A stretch of DNA of 64,000 nucleotides, taken from assembly GCF_050320075.1 (NCBI RefSeq), contig NZ_CP190018.1; one strand, 5' to 3'. The notes beneath the pieces were generated by a model. It was not told the origin of the DNA and searched no databases. It saw nothing but the letters and a program-made list of their open reading frames with translations. This DNA comes from Escherichia coli. Lineage in GTDB: Bacteria; Pseudomonadota; Gammaproteobacteria; Enterobacterales; Enterobacteriaceae. Position 1 is the first letter of the stretch, and each line of letters starts with the position of its first letter. A program made the translations under genes and the position numbers. Below are positions 2,610-23,541 of this stretch, piece after piece.

Positions 2610-2984
2610 ATGGGGAAGCAAGGCAAAGGCAAAGGCAACAAAAATCAGGTTAAGGTTACGTGGGCTCAGGCGTGGCGGGATGTAATGATAAGAGCCATGT
2701 CTAATGGTCAGTTGATACCTATTACCATCAGTATTATTTTAATGATTGCTGCATGGAGGTTACCAAAAACAGACTTGTCCAATTTAGCCTTCTCTATTGT
2801 TGATGGCTTTAAGGAGCATTCCTTGGTTGGTTGGGCTATCTCGGTAATAGTGGGTTTGGCTTGGTCTGCACATGCGCGAATCATGAGGCGCTGTTTTAGT
2901 TCCGAGGCACAGAGAATCGGTAACGAGAAAACAAAGTATCAACAAAGACAGACCACTCAAGCCTTGGGTACAAGTGATAAATAG
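2610..2984 (+). CDS. Small membrane protein, 124 aa, two predicted TM helices, basic Lys/Gly-rich N-terminus (cargo)
   Basis: ORF track; hydrophobic stretches LIPITISIILMIAAW and LVGWAISVIVGLAWSA; AT-rich relative to phage backbone; start codon choice uncertain. Confidence 0.55.
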   Translation: MGKQGKGKGNKNQVKVTWAQAWRDVMIRAMSNGQLIPITISIILMIAAWRLPKTDLSNLAFSIVDGFKEHSLVGWAISVIVGLAWSAHARIMRRCFSSEAQRIGNEKTKYQQRQTTQALGTSDK

Positions 2985-3004
2985 TTGTTTATTTAGGAGT
3001 TATT

Positions 3005-3562
3005 ATGCTGACAGTGCTGTTTTATGTGCTGTTGGGTTTAGGCGCAGCACACTTCATTTACGAGCGAATCATTTTGCCGTCCATCCGACTTCATTATAGA
3101 AACCAATTGTTTGCGCTTCGTGATGTCGCTAGGAGGAAAATCATTGATGGAGGTTCCGATACTTCCATGCAAGCGGCAACACTTGTGCATGACTCATTGA
3201 ATAACGCTATCAATAGATTGCATTTACTCACGTTGCCAAACAAATTTCGTGCTCAAAAGCGTATGGCAGAAAACCATGCAATAAGGCAGAAAATTCGGCG
3301 TGAGATAGATGTTTTCAAACGCTGTGATGATAGAGAAGTTGTTGATGTACTGTTTAAATCCGGTCGGATACTTGAAAATGTACTGTTATTCAATAGCTTA
3401 ATGTTATTGCTTTACATGTTTCCATTTGTCCTTGCTGTATGGTTCTGTGTTAGGGTCATAAAGACAGCAAGTAGTTTAGTACAGTGGGTCAAAGGAAGAG
3501 ATTTAGAGGAAGCTATAATGCTGCTTCCTGATACTCAGGTTGAAAAGGTTGTATACGCATAA
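3005..3562 (+). CDS. Membrane protein, 185 aa, hydrophobic N-terminal and C-terminal segments (cargo)
   Basis: ORF track; AGGAG-like RBS 7 nt upstream of ATG; 20 bp after the preceding ORF, so co-operonic; hydrophobic segments MLTVLFYVLLGLGAAHFIY and LMLLLYMFPFVLAVWFCV. Confidence 0.65.
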   Translation: MLTVLFYVLLGLGAAHFIYERIILPSIRLHYRNQLFALRDVARRKIIDGGSDTSMQAATLVHDSLNNAINRLHLLTLPNKFRAQKRMAENHAIRQKIRREIDVFKRCDDREVVDVLFKSGRILENVLLFNSLMLLLYMFPFVLAVWFCVRVIKTASSLVQWVKGRDLEEAIMLLPDTQVEKVVYA

Positions 3563-3590
3563 AAATCACCCCTTAGGGGGTGATTTTTTT
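3563..3590 (+). terminator. Rho-independent terminator after the two-gene membrane operon
   Basis: aatcacccc-TTAG-ggggtgatt stem-loop followed by T7 run immediately after the stop codon. Confidence 0.6.
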
Positions 3591-3801
3591 ACATGACTTT
3601 TGATTAGCTGACATTGTAAATCCGCATGTATCAGATGCATTGTTTTGCATGTGGAAATGGGTGTTTTCACTGCCAGCTATCGCTACATGTAGCAAAAACA
3701 CGGGCTTAATAAGAAATCATTCTGCCATAAGGCATAACTTCCCCGCGTGCTCAGGTATTGACGTCATAGATATGGATCTTTTTTAATCAAGGTATGGTAT
3801 T

Positions 3802-4749
3802 ATGAAGATATTTATTAGTTGGTCAGGTCAGGACAGCCTGGAGATAGCAAAAGTATTACGGGATTGGATACCGAATGTTATTCAAGTAGCTGAGCCGTAC
3901 GTATCAGCGGAAGATATTGATAAAGGCACTCGCTGGGCGACTGATATATCAAAGGAACTTGATGACTCTTCTTATGGGATTATTTGCCTTACAAAAAATA
4001 ATATTAATGCACCGTGGATAAATTTTGAGGCGGGTGCTTTAGGTAAAAAGGTTGATAAGAGCCGGGTTAGTCCTTTCTTGTTTAAAATTAAACCATCTGA
4101 GATAACAGGCCCAATATTACAATTCCAGTATACTCGTTCGGATGATAAGAACGATATTTTGAAGTTGATGTTGTCAATAAATAATCAAGCAGGATTTTTG
4201 ACTGAAGAACGCTTAACTAAAGCTTTCGAGCAATGGTGGCCAAGTTTAGAGCGTGAGTTAGATAACATTCAAGATATTAACCCTGTAGATAAAGATTCCA
4301 CTAAAAAAACAAAAGGTGATTCGACTTCTGAGATACAAAATCTTTCCAAAATTGTTGAAAGTTTGCTGGATATTAGCCGAACAAATCACCAATTATTGCG
4401 TGATCCAGCATCATTATTGCCAGAAGAATATGTTAGCAAAATAATAAACAGGGAAGGGCGTAAAGAAACTGTTTTAAAAATTGTAGCTTCTGATTTATTA
4501 TCCATGCATCATTCACTAATTCGTGTAAAAAGAAGATTTATTCGCCGTGGTATTGATGAAACATCTAGGAGCGAGTTAATTGAATCATTAAATAAAATGA
4601 TAATGGATTGTTCTAGAGTAATCGCTCACTTAGATAATTATTGTGGGGCTTCATCAAACAATATGTTCAATAGTGCGCTTAGATTGCGGACCAGAAATTT
4701 AATTGACATGATGGATGAGGAGGATGCAGAACGGGATGAAATGGAATAA
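3802..4749 (+). CDS. TIR-like domain protein, 315 aa: N-terminal TIR-like fold (~130 aa) plus helical C-terminal domain of unknown function (cargo, candidate defence protein)
   Basis: N-terminus MKIFISWSGQDS...GIICLT...APWINFEAGAL matches the bacterial TIR/TIR-like signature (FISYS-type strand 1, conserved W..E.G motif) by eye; no HMM search run. Confidence 0.65.
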   Translation: MKIFISWSGQDSLEIAKVLRDWIPNVIQVAEPYVSAEDIDKGTRWATDISKELDDSSYGIICLTKNNINAPWINFEAGALGKKVDKSRVSPFLFKIKPSEITGPILQFQYTRSDDKNDILKLMLSINNQAGFLTEERLTKAFEQWWPSLERELDNIQDINPVDKDSTKKTKGDSTSEIQNLSKIVESLLDISRTNHQLLRDPASLLPEEYVSKIINREGRKETVLKIVASDLLSMHHSLIRVKRRFIRRGIDETSRSELIESLNKMIMDCSRVIAHLDNYCGASSNNMFNSALRLRTRNLIDMMDEEDAERDEME

Positions 4750-4797
4750 TCAATTTTGACTAATCATAAATAATTTTGCATATATAAACTTATAATG

Positions 4798-4830
4798 CCG
4801 CAGCCGCTATTTTTCAGCGGCTGTATATCG
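4798..4830 (+). terminator. Putative terminator downstream of the TIR-like gene
   Basis: cagccgct-atttttc-agcggctg stem-loop followed by a short T-containing tract; weaker than the other terminators. Confidence 0.35.
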
Positions 4831-5293
4831 CTTATAATGGGTATGTTATTTTTATTTTGATAAAATCATTAAAATTGTCGATGTTATATGAATGCACATG
4901 TATTATTAATGTTAGAAGATTATGCCTGCTTACGGCTATTGTGCTGAATTCAACTATGAACGCATCAGTATTAAAATCGTTCCATGAAATGTTCTTCGTC
5001 TACAGCAGATGATGGGCAACGAAAAAATGACGCTGAGTGAGTTGGTCGGGGAGAATTGTTAGAGGTATTTATGGAGTGGTTTAATAATATCGGTCAATCC
5101 TGAGTTGCAGCATCACATAGACGATAGGGAATCTCTCCAGTCGTTCTGGAATGGCAGCGTTGAACAACAAGCACAGCGAGGCGTTAGATGCCCATCAGAT
5201 TGACACAGAGGGTTTATGAATCGCTGGGATTTACTTAGTTTGAAAAATAATATATTTATATGTTTTTGTATTGTGTTTGTTAAGGAGTTTGGA

Positions 5294-5500
5294 TTGAAAA
5301 GAAAACTGATTTGTGTTATGGCTTTTTGGGGGGCGTTGCTGGCTGGTTGTAATGAGAGTAATAAAAAAGAAGTTGAGGGTTGTATTGAAAGAGGTGTCCA
5401 ATATTTTATAGAGATTGGTTCTTACCCTAAATTAAGTGATGGGCGTGATGCTGTGAAAGTTGCTACTGAACGTTGTAATAGAACAATAACGGCTTTCTGA
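5294..5500 (+). CDS. Small putative lipoprotein (about 68 aa precursor), signal peptide with lipobox LAGC (cargo)
   Basis: In-frame TTG at 5294 with TAAGGAG RBS 7 nt upstream gives MKRKLICVMAFWGALLAGC; the track starts at 5216 and an ATG lies at 5318; stop overlaps next start (TGATAATG). Confidence 0.45.
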   Translation: MKRKLICVMAFWGALLAGCNESNKKEVEGCIERGVQYFIEIGSYPKLSDGRDAVKVATERCNRTITAF

Positions 5501-5502
5501 TA

Positions 5503-6420
5503 ATGGATTATACGAGCTATATAATAGGACAGCTTCAGGTTGAGGATATTATTGATGCAATTAAAGGCGTTAATAATACTAATGTCATAAAAGATTATGT
5601 GCTGCCTGTAGTATTACCAATTATATCTTCTGTGCTGAGTTACTTTATTGCAACTAGGTTGTTTTATCGGCAGGAGTACCTTAAAGCACAAAGAAGAAAG
5701 GTAAGCGTTGTAAATAAATGTATTTATGACTACTTTTCTGCAATGACAACGTTGTTGCAAATTAAAGGGAATTATTATGGTGGGGTAAGTATAAGTGAAA
5801 ATCCTATCGAGAGGGCTTTAGCTTTTCCTGTTGTGGTTTTTTCTGGTGCTCCTCTATCATCAGATTTAAGTGAGTTGGCCTGTATATTGAGTCAAAAGGG
5901 AGTAGGGAATAATAGAGAGCCAGCAAAGACTACTAACTGGGGGGATGCTTTTGCTGTTAGTGATATAGCAAGAAGGTTTAACAGCCTATTGGCTGCATTA
6001 AATGTTAGGAATGATTTTGATGACACCTATAGAGGAATGATTATTGAATCAACAGGTTCACCTTTGCCTACGATGCGTTTTAAAAATGATGATATTGTTA
6101 ATGCTATAGGTAGTAATAAGGCAGCTTATTACATTGATATTACTGAGCAAATAATGATTATGATAGATGTTTTGTTGCTTGATATTAATCTGTTGCTCAA
6201 AGAGTTGCCATTGTATGCTGAATCGCTGTTTGACAAAAGAGTAATGCAAGAAGATTCAGGGATTCTTAAATTCAATGATTTGCACGAACGTTTTCCTCTA
6301 CTTATGAAACCTGTAACGCCACCTTCGATTAAACTCATGTCTGATTATTTGGGGTACAGTGAAGATGAGATCTTACGACGCTATCCATACCCGTTCTTTA
6401 ATATGCATGATTGTGAATGA
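5503..6420 (+). CDS. Hypothetical protein, 305 aa, single N-proximal TM helix, no domain recognised (cargo)
   Basis: ORF track; translationally coupled to the upstream lipoprotein ORF; hydrophobic segment VLPVVLPIISSVLSYFIATRLFY; strongly AT-rich. Confidence 0.65.
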   Translation: MDYTSYIIGQLQVEDIIDAIKGVNNTNVIKDYVLPVVLPIISSVLSYFIATRLFYRQEYLKAQRRKVSVVNKCIYDYFSAMTTLLQIKGNYYGGVSISENPIERALAFPVVVFSGAPLSSDLSELACILSQKGVGNNREPAKTTNWGDAFAVSDIARRFNSLLAALNVRNDFDDTYRGMIIESTGSPLPTMRFKNDDIVNAIGSNKAAYYIDITEQIMIMIDVLLLDINLLLKELPLYAESLFDKRVMQEDSGILKFNDLHERFPLLMKPVTPPSIKLMSDYLGYSEDEILRRYPYPFFNMHDCE

Positions 6421-15897: not shown

Positions 15898-15930
15898 TTT
15901 TATCCAGGCAGAGGCTGATGCGCAATTAAG

Positions 15931-15962
15931 CATTGAGCGGCCGTGCTGGTCGCTCAATATTT
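15931..15962. terminator. Bidirectional stem-loop between convergent S and the reverse-oriented cargo gene
   Basis: Perfect 8-bp inverted repeat attgagcg...cgctcaat with 10-nt loop. Confidence 0.45.
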
Positions 15963-15968
15963 AGAGGT

Positions 15969-16754
15969 TTATGAGTGGTTTTTATTTGATGCTTTGTATT
16001 CTAAAACCTTCTTATTGGCGTAAAGGAATTTTGTATATGACAGGAATATAAGCAGACCTGAAATGAAATAGGTTAGGGATATTATTAATAATGTTTTTTT
16101 GTAGCTGTTATTATCTTTAATCTCCTGACTTAACCATTCGGAGTCCTCCTTGTTTAGCTGTAAGAGCTTATTGCAGGCGATCTCGGGAAGTGTGTCTTTT
16201 ATAAATACGTTTTGCAGACTCTTGCAATCGGCAAGGCTATAAGTTTTATTAAATTCAACCGTTTTATTTTTGAAGGATAAAAGAACTTTGTCACTATAAA
16301 CATAGTACATCATATTTTTATATGGTATACCTATGGCATCCCTTACTATAGCGGATTGTTCATTGTGTATATAACATGCGAAGAGAATATAAATAATACT
16401 GGCCAGAATTACAATTGTTGTTTTAATTATGTGTGGTGGTTTTGTTATGTCACCCCAGAAGCGAGTAAGGAAAAAATACGATGTTTTTAGTTTTCCATCA
16501 ATCAGCCCCTGCTGTATCATTCTCACATCTTCGATGCCTGATACATTGATTCCGTTAATTATTTTAAATAGTTGAATGTCGCGCCATTTTTTGTCGAGCA
16601 TTTTTAACTTTCTGTCTGAATACTCAAGATTGAAATGATGTGCAATAAACCTCATAAGATTACTTTTACCAAAGGTAACAAATGTTAATGCTATTAATAA
16701 AAATAGATACAAAGAGATAAACCACCACGCATTAGTCACATTATCACTGAACAT
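15969..16754 (-). CDS. Integral membrane protein, 261 aa, three predicted TM helices, reverse-oriented moron between S and V (cargo)
   Basis: ORF track; GAGGAG RBS 6 nt upstream of ATG; very AT-rich; opposite strand to the flanking late operon. Confidence 0.7.
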   Translation of the reverse strand: MFSDNVTNAWWFISLYLFLLIALTFVTFGKSNLMRFIAHHFNLEYSDRKLKMLDKKWRDIQLFKIINGINVSGIEDVRMIQQGLIDGKLKTSYFFLTRFWGDITKPPHIIKTTIVILASIIYILFACYIHNEQSAIVRDAIGIPYKNMMYYVYSDKVLLSFKNKTVEFNKTYSLADCKSLQNVFIKDTLPEIACNKLLQLNKEDSEWLSQEIKDNNSYKKTLLIISLTYFISGLLIFLSYTKFLYANKKVLEYKASNKNHS

Positions 16755-16837
16755 TACGCTCTCCTCGAATGTTGTATGGTCGTTCTACAAATGAATCCAG
16801 ATAGCATAACTTTTATATATTGTGCAATCTCACACGC

Positions 16838-17473
16838 ATGAACACTCTCGCAAATATTCAGGAACTCGCGCGCGCACTGCGCAACATGATCCGCACCGGC
16901 ATTATCGTCGAAACCGACCTTAATGCCGGTCGCTGCCGTGTGCAGACCGGCGGCATGTGCACCGACTGGCTTCAGTGGCTGACCCATCGCGCCGGGCGTT
17001 CGCGCACATGGTGGGCACCTTCCGTGGGGGAACAGGTGCTGATTCTGGCCGTGGGTGGTGAACTCGACACGGCGTTCGTTCTGCCGGGGATTTATTCCGG
17101 CGATAACCCCGCGCCGTCTGCGTCGGCGGATGCCCTGCATATCCGTTTCCCTGACGGGGCGGTGATTGAGTATGAACCTGAAACCAGCGCGCTCACGGTA
17201 AGCGGAGTTAAAACGGCCAGCGTGACGGCTTCTGATTCTGTTACTGCCACGGTGCCGGTGGTCATGGTGAAAGCATCAACCCGCATCACCCTGGACACAC
17301 CGGAGGTGGTCTGCACCAACAGGCTGATTACCGGCACGCTGGAAGTGCAGAAGGGCGGGACGATGCGCGGCAACATTGAACACACCGGCGGTGAGCTCTC
17401 ATCAAACGGTAAGGTACTGCATACCCATAAACACCCCGGCGACAGCGGCGGCACAACCGGGGGACCTCTATGA
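16838..17473 (+). CDS. V: Baseplate spike protein (P2 gpV-like)
   Basis: 211 aa from ATG at 16838 (MNTLANIQELARAL...); track ORF begins at an upstream TTG. Confidence 0.85.
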   Translation: MNTLANIQELARALRNMIRTGIIVETDLNAGRCRVQTGGMCTDWLQWLTHRAGRSRTWWAPSVGEQVLILAVGGELDTAFVLPGIYSGDNPAPSASADALHIRFPDGAVIEYEPETSALTVSGVKTASVTASDSVTATVPVVMVKASTRITLDTPEVVCTNRLITGTLEVQKGGTMRGNIEHTGGELSSNGKVLHTHKHPGDSGGTTGGPL

Positions 17474-19263: not shown

Positions 19264-21417
19264 ATGAGCACAAAATTCAAAACCGTTATCACCACTGCCG
19301 GTGCAGCAAAGCTGGCAGCGGCAACCGCACCGGGAGGGCGGAAGGTCAATATTACCACGATGGCCGTCGGGGATGGCGGTGGTAAATTGCCTGTCCCGGA
19401 TGCCGGACAGACCGGGCTTATCCACGAAGTCTGGCGACATGCGCTGAACAAAATCAGCCAGGACAAACGAAACAGTAATTATATTATCGCAGAGCTGGTT
19501 ATTCCGCCGGAGGTGGGCGGCTTCTGGATGCGTGAGCTTGGCCTGTACGATGATGCGGGAACGTTAATTGCCGTGGCGAACATGGCCGAAAGTTATAAAC
19601 CTGCCCTTGCCGAAGGCTCAGGGCGTTCGCAGACCTGCCGCATGGTCATCATCGTCAGCAGTGTGGCCTCAGTGGAGCTGACCATTGACACCACAACGGT
19701 GATGGCGACGCAGGATTACGTTGATGACAAAATTGCAGAGCATGAACAGTCACGACGTCACCCGGACGCCTCGCTGACCGCAAAAGGTTTTACTCAGTTA
19801 AGCAATGCGACCAACAGCACGTCTGAAACACTGGCCGCAACGCCGAAAGCGGTTAAGGCCGCATATGACCTTGCTAACGGGAAATATACCGCACAGGACG
19901 CTACCACAGCGCGAAAAGGTCTTGTCCAGCTAAGTAGTGCGACCAACAGCATGTCTGAAACGCTCGCCGCAACACCAAAAGCCGTTAAGACGGTAATGGA
20001 TGAAACGAACAAGAAAGCGCCATTAAACAGCCCTGCACTGACCGGAACGCCAACGACGCCAACTGCGCGACAGGGAACGAATAATACTCAGATCGCAAAC
20101 ACGGCTTTCGTTATGGCCGCGATTGCCGCCCTTGTAGACTCGTCGCCTGACGCACTGAATACGCTGAACGAGCTGGCGGCGGCGCTGGGCAATGACCCGA
20201 ATTTTGCTACCACCATGACTAATGCGCTTGCGGGTAAGCAACCGAAAGATGCCACTTTGACGGCGCTGGCGGGGCTTGCTACTGCGGCAGACAGGTTTCC
20301 GTATTTTACGGGGAATGATGTTGCCAGCCTGGCGACCCTGACAAAAGTCGGGCGGGATATTCTGGCTAAATCGACCGTTGCCGCCGTTATCGAATATCTC
20401 GGTTTACAGGAAACGGTAAACCGAGCCGGGAACGCCGTGCAAAAAAATGGCGATACCTTGTCCGGTGGACTTACTTTTGAAAACGACTCAATCCTTGCCT
20501 GGATTCGAAATACTGACTGGGCGAAGATTGGATTTAAAAATGATGCCGATGGTGACACTGATTCATACATGTGGTTTGAAACAGGCGACAACGGCAATGA
20601 ATATTTCAAATGGAGAAGCAAACAAGGCACCACAACAAAAGACCTGATGAATCTTAAATGGGATGCTTTGTATGTTCTTGTCAATGCCATTGTAAATGGC
20701 GAAGTCATATCAAAATCAGCAAACGGCCTACGTATTGCTTATGGTAATTACGGATTCTTTATTCGTAATGATGGTTCAAATACATACTTCATGTTGACAA
20801 ACTCCGGTGACAACATGGGGACTTATAACGGATTAAGGCCATTATGGATTAATAACGCTACTGGCGCTGTTTCGATGGGGCGTGGCCTTAATGTTTCAGG
20901 AGAAACACTTTCAGACCGTTTTGCTATTAACAGCGGTAATGGTATGTGGATTCAGATGCGCGATAACAACGCTATCTTTGGGAAAAATATAGTTAACACT
21001 GATAGCGCCCAGGCCTTGCTCCGTCAGGACCATGCCGACCGCAAATTTATGATTGGCGGTCTGGGAAATAAGCAATTTGGCATCTACATGATTAATAACT
21101 CAAGGACAGCCAATGGCACCGATGGTCAGGCGTACATGGACAATAACGGTAACTGGCTTTGTGGTTCGCAAGTTATTCCCGGCAACTATGGCAATTTTGA
21201 TTCCAGATATGTGAAAGATGTTCGACTTGGTTCACAGCAATATTATGGAGTGAACAACTGGCAAACATGGAATTTCCAGTGCCCGTCAGGTCATGTATTG
21301 TCTGGTATTAATGTTCAGGATACAGGGTCCAACTCTGCCGATAATATAGCGGGCGTTTATTACAGACCCGTTCAAAAGTATATAAATGGCACCTGGTATA
21401 ATGTAGCGAGCGTTTAA
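19264..21417 (+). CDS. H: Tail fibre protein (P2 gpH-like), 717 aa with AT-rich C-terminal receptor-binding region
   Basis: Position after I; N-terminus conserved phage-fibre type; composition shifts in the distal half. Confidence 0.85.
19786..20001 (+). repeat. Two imperfect ~84-bp direct repeats inside gene H, encoding a duplicated G(F/L)(T/V)[19 protein letters not shown] motif
   Basis: Repeat copies at about 19786-19869 and 19918-20001 read directly in DNA and protein. Confidence 0.6.
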
Positions 21418-21418
21418 T

Positions 21419-21946
21419 ATGATGCACTTAAAGAACATAAAAGCGGGTAACGCTAAAACACTGGAACAGTATGAGTTAACAAAGAAACACGGAGTTATCT
21501 GGCTTTACTCTGAGGACGGAAAAAACTGGTATGAGGAAGTGAAGAACTTTCAGCCAGACACAATAAAGATTGTTTACGATGAAAATAATATTATTGTCGC
21601 TATCACCAGAGATGCTTCAACGCTTAATCCTGAAGGTTTTAGCGTTGTTGAGGTTCCTGATATTACCTCCAACCGACGTGCTGACGACTCAGGTAAATGG
21701 ATGTTTAAGGATGGTGCTGTGATTAAACGAATTTATACGGCAGAGGAATTGCAGCAGCAGGCAGAAAATCGGAAAGGCAGACTTCTTGCAGATGCTGAAT
21801 CCGTGATTTTGCCGCTGGAGCGCGCTGTCAGGCTGAATATGGCAACAGATGAGGAACGCAGCCGACTGGAAGCATGGGAACGCTACAACGTTCTGGTCAG
21901 TCGTGTGGATACTGCAAATCCTGAATGGCCAGAAATGCCGCAATAA
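21419..21946 (+). CDS. G: Tail fibre assembly protein (P2 gpG-like)
   Basis: 175 aa, immediately downstream of H. Confidence 0.8.
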
Positions 21947-22240: not shown

Positions 22241-22891
22241 ATGCATACTGGCTTTAAGGGAACTTATGACGCACTTTTGAGGCTTGAGAAGGCTATAGAA
22301 GGTCTGACCATCCAAGATGGGTTGATGACGAATACTCTTGGAGTTGGTGTTCCGGCAATAACATCAGATGACCTAATTGACCAAATAATTTGCATTATTA
22401 ACAAGCTGAAAGCATATGGTGATATTGAACTAACTGAAAAAGAAATTGCCGCTTATTCATCTCTCCCTGAAAAAATTGACACACTCATTAGAGTTCACGT
22501 CCCAGAGTTCTCAGGCGTTAACTCCGCACGAGCTATATCTTCATATATGCTAACACTGGCATATGTTGACCATTTCTTGGATGAATCGTTTACATGGAAG
22601 CGGTTGGATAATGCTAATTTACTTCCTAGAAATTTAAGCAGAAAAATTAAAAGCATGGAGGCGAGAATTAACAAGATTGATCCTGAGATGGATGCTCTTG
22701 AGAGTAAAGTTAAAACGATTAATGATGCTCATGTAGCTGCAGAAAATATACCTATAGACTTAAATGAATTAAAGGAATACAACAAAGAAGCATCTGATTT
22801 AAAGGAGAAGATATCTAAAACTCATTTCAGTTTAGAGTCCCAAGAAGAAGCCGCAAAAAAAATTATTGATGAGTTGCAAGAAAAAATATAG
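22241..22891 (+). CDS. Cargo protein at the Z/fun position, N-terminal part: 216 aa, soluble, coiled-coil-rich C-terminal half; probably the 5' portion of a longer frameshifted gene
   Basis: ORF track; TATAAT-like -10 element about 27 nt upstream; ends in TAG at 22889-22891 directly after an A6 tract. Confidence 0.6.
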   Translation: MHTGFKGTYDALLRLEKAIEGLTIQDGLMTNTLGVGVPAITSDDLIDQIICIINKLKAYGDIELTEKEIAAYSSLPEKIDTLIRVHVPEFSGVNSARAISSYMLTLAYVDHFLDESFTWKRLDNANLLPRNLSRKIKSMEARINKIDPEMDALESKVKTINDAHVAAENIPIDLNELKEYNKEASDLKEKISKTHFSLESQEEAAKKIIDELQEKI

Positions 22892-23016
22892 AGGCTGCCC
22901 GGTATCTGGCTCTTTGCGAAGAGGCTATTAGGGCTTCAACATCGAAAGGCTTAGCAGGAGCATTTGAAATAAAAGCAGATAAGCTTAACCGAAGTATCCA
23001 ACTATGGGTTGCCGGT

Positions 23017-23541
23017 TTGGCAGTTGCTTTGGGGCTTGGTGGTTTAGTCGGATATGAAAGATTGAAAGTTCTTTCTGGGGTTTTGAATAACCCAAATCCC
23101 AGTGCGGTAGTAATACTCACTCAATTACTATTATCTGTTTTTAGCATAGGCGCCCCTCTTTGGTTTGCTTGGATGTCTACAAAACAAATTAATCAACGTT
23201 TCAAACTCGCAGAGGATTATGCTTATAAAGCTTCTGTGGCTAAAGCGTATGAGGGATACAAAAATGAGGCATGCAAGGTATCAGATGGAGAGTTCGAAAA
23301 ACGCTTATTTGATTCTGCGCTAAGTCGACTTGAAGAGGCTCCATTGCGTTTTGTGAAAGATGAAGATCATACTACTCCTTGGACAGAAATGCTTAATTCT
23401 AAGTCGTTTCAAAAATTCTTAGATGCCTCCATTGATAATGTAAATTATGTTAAAGGGATTATAAGTAAGAAAGGCCAATCAGCAGCTAAAGCAAGCAATG
23501 ATGAGGTTAATCACATTGAAAAACTAAAGAATGAAGCTTGA
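23017..23541 (+). CDS. Cargo protein, C-terminal part: two TM helices plus about 130-aa C-terminal domain; reading frame is open back to 22873 with no in-frame ATG or RBS, consistent with fusion to the upstream ORF through a -1 shift
   Basis: Track start is a TTG; hand translation of 22873-23016 is stop-free and continues the coiled-coil (EAARYLALCEEAIRASTSKG...). Confidence 0.5.
   Translation: MAVALGLGGLVGYERLKVLSGVLNNPNPSAVVILTQLLLSVFSIGAPLWFAWMSTKQINQRFKLAEDYAYKASVAKAYEGYKNEACKVSDGEFEKRLFDSALSRLEEAPLRFVKDEDHTTPWTEMLNSKSFQKFLDASIDNVNYVKGIISKKGQSAAKASNDEVNHIEKLKNEA

What the first reader, a model, noticed from the sequence alone, without database searches (positions are those of the whole stretch)
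19786..20001. Tandemly duplicated 28-residue motif in the tail fibre gene H
Two ~84-bp imperfect direct repeats encode [28 protein letters not shown] and [28 protein letters not shown]. Such repeats in fibre shafts are substrates for recombination that change fibre length or swap the distal receptor-binding region, which here is compositionally distinct and AT-rich.
Basis: seen in the sequence. Interest (0 to 1): 0.25.

Follow-up and report, generated by a model that had tools for sequence, protein, structure and literature searches.

The report
Known phage tail-fibre shaft repeat
Two adjacent copies of a long-known 44-residue building block of phage tail fibres sit in the shaft of a P2-type prophage's fibre gene; related prophages carry one to six copies and different tips, so this is an ordinary, already described module through which fibres change length and exchange tips.

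Summary
Both quoted peptides are encoded at the stated coordinates in a 717-aa P2 gpH-type tail-fibre gene (19264-21417). The true unit is 44 aa / 132 nt, head to tail (19771-19902 and 19903-20034).

It is Pfam PF03406 (Phage_fiber_2), matched twice. It is identical in architecture to reference phage P2 gpH, and it equals the 132-nt "repeated element a1" annotated in the P1 S gene record M81956.

Close P2-type H genes carry 1, 2, 3, 4, 5 or 6 units. All but five were seen in complete E. coli genomes. The one-unit allele is a clean unit1-5'/unit2-3' hybrid, crossed over inside the AATPKAVK core. Some arrays have internal units 100% identical in DNA. At least 30 different distal modules join right after the core.

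In this window, however, the two units are old and diverged, with a longest exact run of 14 nt. The AT-rich distal part starts about 350 nt downstream, at a gix-like invertase-site relic. Divergence from P2 itself starts at aa ~478.

Verdict: already known, low interest.

The parts
19264..21417 (+). Tail-fibre gene, P2 gpH type (717 aa)
   Evidence: ORF list. Pfam hits PF12571 + PF03406 x2 + PF21446. Nearly identical to P2 gpH over aa 1-478. P2-type gene order (baseplate V, W, J, I, then H, then tail-fibre assembly) in a closely related annotated prophage of strain RS571.
19264..19716 (+). N-terminal domain (aa 1-151), inferred to attach the fibre to the baseplate
   Evidence: PF12571 Phage_tail_fib, E = 2e-60.
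19771..19902 (+).
   Evidence: HMM and Pfam PF03406 match. In register with the units of multi-copy relatives.
19903..20034 (+). Its last residues run into element b.
   Evidence: HMM and Pfam PF03406 match. Its tail '[15 protein letters not shown]' is the last-unit type seen in relatives.
20017..20238 (+). Element b (aa 252-325, [13 protein letters not shown]...[17 protein letters not shown]), the 74-aa module that follows the array
   Evidence: Corresponds to the 222-nt 'repeated element b1' annotated in P1 S (M81956); compared by translation.
20387..20421 (+). gix-like relic of an invertase crossover site inside H. Homology to Mu/D108/P1 S starts here, and the GC drop follows.
   Evidence: Aligns to the inverted repeat annotated in D108 S (L016:1509-1544). 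Phage matches to Mu-like/P1 S start at query nt 1117-1142, i.e. window 20380-20405. GC falls from 0.55 to 0.40 from about 20450.
20695..21414 (+). Distal, receptor-binding part that differs from P2 gpH and is of the Mu S / P1 S type
   Evidence: Alignment to P2 H breaks at aa ~478. Near-identity to Mu tail fibre protein S (5yvq) over aa 375-716.
21419..21946 (+). Tail-fibre assembly chaperone (gpG/U type)
   Evidence: PF02413 Caudo_TAP, E = 4e-36. Matches P2 G and Mu/P1 U in the phage records.

Best explanation
The feature is a two-unit array of the 44-residue 'phage tail fibre repeat' (Pfam PF03406, also the 'element a' of the P1 S gene). It lies in the proximal shaft of a P2 gpH-type tail fibre, between the N-terminal domain (inferred baseplate attachment) and a collar-like 'element b'.

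At the protein level each unit is a small structural module of the fibre, which is presumed to be a trimer. A Gly turn and a short strand (G-LVQLS) are followed by a second short strand (LAA) and a Thr-Pro-capped helix ([14 protein letters not shown]). The helix probably packs as a three-helix bundle on the fibre axis, so each unit would add a fixed increment of shaft length. This structural part is inferred.

At the DNA level the unit is 132 nt, a multiple of three, and its core is conserved in many fibre genes. In-register recombination between units therefore keeps the reading frame. Within one gene it adds or removes whole units. Between fibre genes of different prophages or phages it joins one N-terminus to another distal module. 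Comparative data support this, but the events themselves were not observed.

In this window the array is in the canonical P2 state: a first unit plus a last unit, with no internal unit. The two copies are old and held together by selection on the protein.
For: Identity:
- PF03406 matches twice, at 135 bits against a cut-off of 22.
- Reference P2 gpH has the same two units and is nearly identical over aa 1-478.
- The 132-nt 'repeated element a1' and 222-nt 'b1' annotated in P1 translate to the same unit and the same following module.

Family size: 5244 cluster representatives match at E <= 1e-3, with 2 to 22 matched stretches among the 150 listed. A stricter recount gave up to 15. The modal spacing is 44 aa.

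Copy-number series:
- 2-6 units in close relatives.
- 1, 2, 3, 4 and 6 units in complete genomes.

Mechanism traces:
- The one-unit allele (PEC301) carries unit-1 variants up to nt ~72 and unit-2 variants from nt ~75. Its flanks are 97-98% identical to the window.
- Internal units are 100% identical over 132 nt in L008 and L009. The six units of L010 are mutually distinct at 80-92%, so that array is not an assembly artefact.

Swaps:
- At least 30 different sequences follow ...ATPKAVK.
- Both N-terminal types combine with several distal classes and copy numbers.

Substrate availability: 2734 of 5426 complete E. coli genomes have matches, with a median of 2 and up to 17 places per genome.

Protein-level selection: within the core the two window units differ by 7 synonymous and 4 non-synonymous codons.

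Structure:
- The AF2 monomer of the two units has pLDDT 83.5, and each unit shows strand, strand, 14-residue helix.
- The T4 gp34/gp12 mixed alpha-beta repeat is described with the same Gly-strand ... [ST]-Pro-helix logic (PMC5537660).
- hhalign puts G on G and TPK on SPK.
Against: - No recombination event was observed; the mechanism (RecA, phage recombinase, slippage) is unknown.
- In this window the two units share only 63.6% identity and a 14-nt exact run, so intragenic exchange here should be rare.
- The distal module of this gene is joined at other places: the gix-like site at 20387-20421 and aa ~478.
- Pfam PF03406 and my own profile do not hit T4 gp34.
- The model is a monomer of what is presumed to be a trimeric protein.
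- Five-unit arrays were seen only in draft assemblies, and the three identical internal units of L008 could be mis-assembled.
Confidence: 0.85

Rival explanations
1. Static structural duplicate. In this prophage lineage the two units are an ancient, fixed pair kept only because the fibre needs them. They do not recombine at a meaningful rate, and host-range swaps use other junctions: the invertase-site relic and the gp34-like trimerisation domain.
For: The P2 reference and the window have the same two units. All 21 relatives that combine the P2-type N-terminus with the b-element have exactly 2 units. The longest exact identity between the units is 14 nt, or 20 nt in P2. Synonymous differences outnumber non-synonymous ones in the core. 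The boundaries of this gene's distal part lie at 20387-20421 and aa ~478, not at the repeats.
Against: A one-unit hybrid allele exists with flanks 97-98% identical to the window, and it is exactly the deletion product expected from these two units. The same P2-type N-terminus occurs with 3-5 units joined to another distal module.
Confidence: 0.3
2. The copy-number differences are artefacts of short-read assembly of near-identical 132-nt repeats.
For: Many relatives are 'partial' proteins at contig ends. L008 has three units with identical DNA, and the unit is about as long as a typical short read (read length is from my own knowledge).
Against: 1, 2, 3, 4 and 6 units are present in complete-genome assemblies. 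At least 14 complete genomes carry the six-unit array as one colinear 992-nt match. The units of L010 are mutually distinct, which rules out collapse or expansion.
Confidence: 0.03
3. The motif is a functional binding site, for example for surface glycan or for the assembly chaperone, rather than a shaft spacer.
For: The core is very strongly conserved, with 12 invariant positions in 18 diverse units. [quoted passage not shown]
Against: The motif sits next to the baseplate end, far from the distal tip. It occurs with many unrelated distal modules and chaperone types. The copy number varies freely. The conserved residues fit structural roles: a Gly turn and a Thr-Pro helix cap.
Confidence: 0.05
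4. The similarity acts at the DNA or RNA level (regulatory hairpin, recombinase site, antisense gene), or it is due to chance.
For: An antisense ORF (19794..20012, 72 aa) overlaps the repeats.
Against: The antisense ORF merely mirrors the repeat. The conservation is at the protein level, with synonymous changes. No inverted repeat lies within the array. Chance is excluded.
Confidence: 0.01

Closest known systems
Bacteriophage P2 gpH (NC_001895, gene H)
   Same: Same gene position. Nearly identical over aa 1-478, including both repeat units, element b and the gix-like sequence.
   Different: From aa ~478 the window's protein carries a Mu S / P1 S-type distal domain, 717 aa against 669 aa. There are two point differences in the units (S181N, T230M).
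Pfam PF03406 Phage_fiber_2 ('phage tail fibre repeat'; Pf2 of lambda Stf and StfR)
   Same: Both units match the model end to end (1-41 of 42) far above the cut-off. Like other members, the repeat lies in a tail fibre and is tandem with a 44-aa period.
   Different: Nothing of substance. Two units is the low end of a range reaching 12 units in a P1-like S protein and up to 22 matched stretches in other representatives.
'Repeated elements a0/a1 and b1/b2' of the P1 S gene constant part (GenBank M81956; NC_005856 annotation)
   Same: a1 is 132 nt and translates to the same 44-aa unit in a shifted register. b1 is 222 nt and corresponds to the 74 aa after the array.
   Different: P1 has about 1.3 a units and two b units. 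The window has two a units and one b unit. In P1 the invertible C segment with an active cix site follows; here there is only a relic site.
Mixed alpha-beta fibrous repeats of T4 gp34 and gp12 (PMC5537660; PDB 5nxf, 5iv5, 5lye)
   Different: There is no significant sequence or profile match. The structural scores are weak. The T4 repeats are 33-47 aa with a variable loop and a shorter helix. Common ancestry is not shown.
Phage Mu tail fibre protein S (gp49; PDB 5yvq, 9ki1)
   Same: It carries one PF03406 unit at aa 113-154. Its distal domain is nearly identical to the window's aa 375-716.
   Different: It has one unit instead of two, a different N-terminal domain, and an active invertible G segment. 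The paper read (PMC11915804) does not say whether the repeat lies in the modelled part.

Membership tests
Pfam PF03406 Phage_fiber_2 | Match to the family HMM above the gathering score | tested here: met
   E = 5.2e-40, 135.2 bits against a cut-off of 22; 2 stretches, the best covering model positions 1-41 of 42.
Pfam PF03406 Phage_fiber_2 | Occurs in a phage tail-fibre protein, as tandem units of about 40-44 aa | tested here: met
   The host protein has PF12571 at its N-terminus and is followed by a PF02413 chaperone gene. The period is exactly 44 aa here and in relatives.
P2 gpH orthologue | Sequence identity to P2 gpH and the P2-type gene order V-W-J-I-H-G | tested here: met
   Near-identity over aa 1-478. 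The order baseplate V, W, J, I, then H, then assembly protein, is seen in P2 itself and in the annotated RS571 prophage, which matches the window at 98% around H.
P2 gpH orthologue | P2-type distal (receptor-binding) domain | tested here: not met
   From aa ~478 the alignment to P2 H collapses. This part is of the Mu S type, as in 5yvq.
Element a / element b architecture of P1-type S genes | A 132-nt a unit followed by a 222-nt b unit | tested here: met
   The annotated a1 (132 nt) and b1 (222 nt) of M81956 translate to the window's unit and to aa 252-325.
T4 gp34/gp12 mixed alpha-beta fibrous repeat | Sequence or profile homology to the T4 repeats | tested here: not met
   PF03406 does not hit T4 gp34. 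My unit profile gives E = 0.65 on gp34. A PDB profile search finds only Mu S. hhalign gives probability 15%, E = 0.0017.
T4 gp34/gp12 mixed alpha-beta fibrous repeat | Fold: Gly turn, strand, short strand, [ST]-Pro-capped helix forming a trimeric three-helix bundle | tested here: inconclusive
Invertase-switched fibre genes (Mu G, P1 C segments) | Crossover site (gix/cix) inside the fibre gene | tested here: met
   Window 20387-20421 aligns with the annotated inverted repeat of D108 S. It is a relic with substitutions.
Invertase-switched fibre genes (Mu G, P1 C segments) | Inverted alternative Sv'/U' genes and an invertase gene next to the fibre gene | tested here: not met
   Downstream of the chaperone gene there is only AT-rich cargo on the + strand and then the sheath gene. 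By contrast, L012 has inverted chaperone and fibre fragments.

The most novel reading that the evidence does not exclude
The number of 44-aa units is not neutral. It would be a tuned 'reach' parameter of the fibre: prophage lineages would gain or lose units by in-frame recombination to match the thickness of the host's surface layer (O-antigen, capsule) for a given distal tip. That would explain why particular tip classes tend to go with particular copy numbers: b-element 1-4 units, DNAEKRLQK class 3-6, NANGRVPS class 5.
Probability: 0.12. Interest if true: 0.4.

Novelty: already known. Interest (0 to 1): 0.1.

Why it matters
It matters little as a discovery. The repeat is a curated Pfam family, it is present in the reference P2 fibre protein, and it is annotated as a 132-nt repeated element in the P1 S gene record M81956.

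There is some practical value. The comparative data mark natural, frame-preserving splice points, directly after ...AATPKAVK, at which nature has joined one baseplate-binding N-terminus to dozens of distal modules. They also show a natural 1-to-6-unit length series. Both are useful guides for engineering chimeric P2 or pyocin-type fibres.

The repeats also help to explain why fibre genes are frequent contig break points, and why they are annotated as fragments in assemblies.

Tried and rejected
- Tandem Repeats Finder found nothing at the site, because there are only two diverged copies.
- A PDB search with the unit profile found only Mu S, and no structure that certainly covers the repeat. 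The Mu cryo-EM paper models only 'the N-terminus' of gp49 and does not say whether aa 113-154 are included.
- The original 1992 papers, cited as refs 72-73 in PMC3945230, are not held. Prior description therefore rests on the GenBank annotations and on my memory.
- A generic invertase-site pattern (AAACCNNGGTTT, 2 mismatches) is not enriched in the window: 26 matches against 29 expected. The relic was confirmed only by direct alignment to the D108 annotated repeat.
- Membership of T4 gp34 in PF03406 was tested and not met.
- An antisense ORF over the repeats was rejected as a mirror of the coding repeat.
- There are no Chi sites near the array.
- PADLOC and Pfam scans of the AT-rich cargo downstream of the chaperone gene gave only noise.

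Full report
**1. Observation**

The window carries an ORF at 19264..21417 (+ strand, 717 aa).

- The repeat finder reports one strong direct-repeat family: 19782-19857 and 19914-19989, 83% identical over 76 nt, with a start-to-start spacing of 132 nt.
- In 200 codon shuffles of the gene, the best 76-nt direct match averaged 38.8 (sd 1.3, maximum 44). The observed value is 63.
- Tandem Repeats Finder reports nothing there, since there are only two diverged copies.
- A six-frame scan of the whole window with an HMM of the unit finds just these two copies.

**2. What the unit really is**

Relatives show that the repeating unit is 44 aa (132 nt), arranged head to tail. The 28-aa motif is its conserved core, and the 16 residues between the cores ([16 protein letters not shown]) belong to the unit. 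In window coordinates the units are 19771-19902 and 19903-20034.

Over the full 132 nt they are 63.6% identical, and the longest exact run is 14 nt. Within the core they differ by 7 synonymous and 4 non-synonymous codons. The pair is therefore old and held by selection on the protein, not a recent DNA duplication.

**3. Identity**

Pfam places the protein as follows:

- PF12571 (tail-collar fibre N-terminal domain) at aa 1-151.
- PF03406 (Phage_fiber_2, 'phage tail fibre repeat') twice, at 135 bits against a cut-off of 22.
- PF21446 (gp34 trimerisation domain) at aa 419-529.

The next gene (21419..21946) is a PF02413 tail-fibre assembly chaperone.

The gene is the H gene of a P2-type prophage. 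The closely related annotated prophage of E. coli RS571 shows the P2 gene order baseplate V, W, J, I, then H, then assembly protein. The protein is nearly identical to reference P2 gpH over aa 1-478, including both units. The finding is therefore a property of phage P2 gpH itself.

The GenBank record of the P1 S gene (M81956) annotates 'repeated element a1' of 132 nt, a partial 'a0' of 36 nt, and 'b1/b2' of 222 nt. Translated, a1 is the same 44-aa unit in a shifted register. b1 is the 74-aa module that follows the array in the window (aa 252-325, nt 20017-20238).

The papers behind this annotation are Haggard-Ljungquist et al. 1992, Sandmeier et al. 1992 and Sandmeier 1994. They are listed as references 72-74 in PMC3945230. 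I could not read the two 1992 papers and did not try the third, so what I say about their content is from memory.

A 2012 paper names the domain Pf2. It traces it to lambda Stf and StfR and says little is known of its structure and function (PMC3368898).

**4. Spread**

- tblastn of the two units finds 425 phage records. They include P2-like, P1/P7, Mu-like, lambda and Stx phages, Gifsy-1, and phages of Yersinia, Haemophilus, Pasteurella, Actinobacillus and Helicobacter.
- A profile of the unit finds 5244 cluster representatives at E <= 1e-3 among 1.84 billion proteins. The 150 listed have 2 to 22 matched stretches each; a stricter recount gave up to 15. The most common spacing is 44 aa, then 56 aa.
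- A P1-like phage S region holds about 12 units.
- Five representatives with 7-12 units were confirmed as PF03406.

**5.

It is not invariant.

| Source | Units seen |
|---|---|
| 120 best relatives of H aa 1-321, plus the window's own H | 2 (22 proteins), 3 (45), 4 (37), 5 (14), 6 (3) |
| Complete genome PEC301 | 1 |
| The window, and complete genome RS571 | 2 |
| Complete genome AR_0081 | 3 |
| Complete genome VTB96959v, and matches spanning 728 nt of a 992-nt six-unit query | 4 |
| At least 14 complete genomes, each with a single colinear 992-nt match | 6 |
| Draft assemblies only | 5 |

Four observations bear on mechanism:

- The sequence downstream of the window's array (...[25 protein letters not shown]...) occurs with 1, 2, 3 and 4 units. 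This is pure length change.
- The one-unit allele is a hybrid. It follows unit 1 at every informative site up to nt ~72 and unit 2 from nt ~75, so the switch lies in the AATPKAVK core. Its flanks are 97-98% identical to the window. This is the product expected from an in-register exchange between the window's two units.
- Some arrays contain internal units 100% identical over all 132 nt (L008, L009), which indicates recent amplification. The six units of L010 are 80-92% identical and mutually distinct, so they are not an assembly artefact.
- At least 30 different sequences follow the last ...ATPKAVK. Both N-terminal types combine with several distal classes and copy numbers.

Substrates for ectopic exchange are abundant. 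2734 of 5426 complete E. coli genomes match the six-unit query, with a median of 2 and up to 17 places per genome.

**6. What holds for this particular gene**

The window has the canonical P2 state: a 'first' unit (SLTAKGF...) plus a 'last' unit (...[14 protein letters not shown]), with no internal unit. All 21 relatives that combine the P2-type N-terminus with the b-element have two units.

GC falls from about 0.55 to about 0.40 from roughly 20450. Its boundary, however, is not at the repeats.

- Homology to Mu-like (D108, SfMu) and P1 S genes begins at window 20380-20405.
- Exactly there, window 20387-20421 (TTATCGAATATCTCGGTTTACAGGAAACGGTAAAC) aligns with the inverted repeat annotated in D108 S, which is the invertase crossover site. 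P2 H has the same relic.
- The difference from P2 H starts still further downstream, at aa ~478 inside the gp34-like domain. The two proteins converge again near the C-terminus.
- The distal domain is nearly identical to the crystallised Mu fibre protein S (5yvq).

This fibre gene therefore shows three kinds of mosaic junction. The repeats are one of them, and they were not the one used in this gene's own recent history.

**7. How the unit probably works as protein (inferred)**

An AlphaFold2 monomer model of the two units, built on a 50-sequence alignment, has mean pLDDT 83.5. It gives the same elements for each unit: a short strand at QLS, a short strand at LAA, and a 14-residue helix starting at the Pro of ATPKAVK.

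- The best Foldseek hits are gp12-type short tail fibres of Klebsiella phage KP1 (E = 4e-3), then T4 gp12 (5iv5, 5lye).
- All scores are weak.

The T4 gp34 structure paper describes a 'mixed alpha-beta fibrous' repeat shared by gp34 and gp12. In it a conserved Gly makes a turn and starts a strand, and a conserved Ser/Thr-Pro caps a helix that forms a three-helix bundle on the trimer axis (PMC5537660). The PF03406 core has the same logic (G-LVQLS ... A-T-P-KAVK), and hhalign aligns the two in that register, though at only 15% probability.

Pfam PF03406 and my own profile do not hit T4 gp34. I therefore claim that the unit works like that repeat, not that it belongs to the same family. On this reading each unit is a stackable shaft module and copy number sets shaft length. 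Neither the trimer nor the length was tested.

**8. Verdict**

Everything essential is already known: the Pfam family, the P2 reference protein, and the database annotation of elements a and b.

It documents a 1-to-6-unit natural series in P2-type H genes, a clean hybrid single-unit allele, and the junction hot spot directly after the core. Interest is low.

Noticed in passing
window 20387-20421: A relic of an invertase crossover site (gix/cix-like) lies inside H. It aligns with the annotated inverted repeat of D108 S, homology to Mu/P1 S begins there, and the GC drop follows. There is no invertase or inverted Sv'/U' set nearby.
   Followed up: yes
window 20695-21946: The distal part of H (from aa ~478) and the chaperone gene are of the Mu S/U and P1 S/U type rather than the P2 type. 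The distal domain is nearly identical to the crystallised Mu fibre (5yvq). A 'Peduovirus P2' record (OU784549) shares this variant at 96% over 98% of H+G.
   Followed up: partly
window 2610-4749: Three + strand ORFs (124, 185, 315 aa) match PADLOC models 2TM-TIR, 1TM-TIR and TIR-TM (E = 2e-58 to 2e-118), and the third has a Pfam TIR_2 domain. This looks like an anti-phage system in the P2 cargo hot spot after the replication gene. The RS571 prophage carries different cargo there.
   Followed up: partly
window 22241-23541: AT-rich cargo lies between the chaperone gene and the sheath gene, at the position of P2 fun(Z). RS571 has one 433-aa ORF there. In the window a 1-nt deletion (about 22881) splits it into 216 + 174 aa. 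There is no Pfam family and only noise in PADLOC.
   Followed up: partly
window 1-32400 versus 32400-64000: There is no Chi site (GCTGGTGG) in the prophage part, while 11 lie in the chromosomal part (35973-61793). The prophage ends near 32.4 kb, next to yegQ, a ParDE toxin-antitoxin pair, baeSR and mdtCD in the RS571 annotation.
   Followed up: no
window 15899-16838: A second segment has no blastn match to the otherwise 95-98% identical RS571 prophage. It lies around the tail-completion and baseplate V genes and is another mosaic spot.
   Followed up: no
L003 (Escherichia phage vB_EcoM-673R5) 2300-4024: The S gene region of this P1-like phage holds about 12 PF03406 units in a higher-order ~300-nt repeat, yet it is annotated as several 'fragment' CDSs. 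This is probably frameshift or assembly trouble in the repeats.
   Followed up: partly
L008, L009, L010 (draft E. coli contigs): Many P2-type H proteins in the databases are 'partial' because contigs end inside H, downstream of the array. Fibre modules shared between prophages appear to break short-read assemblies.
   Followed up: no
L012 (E. coli AR_0081) 4742-5853: This 3-unit P2-type H gene is followed by an inverted chaperone gene and an inverted partial fibre gene. That is an invertible-segment-like arrangement, which the window lacks.
   Followed up: no
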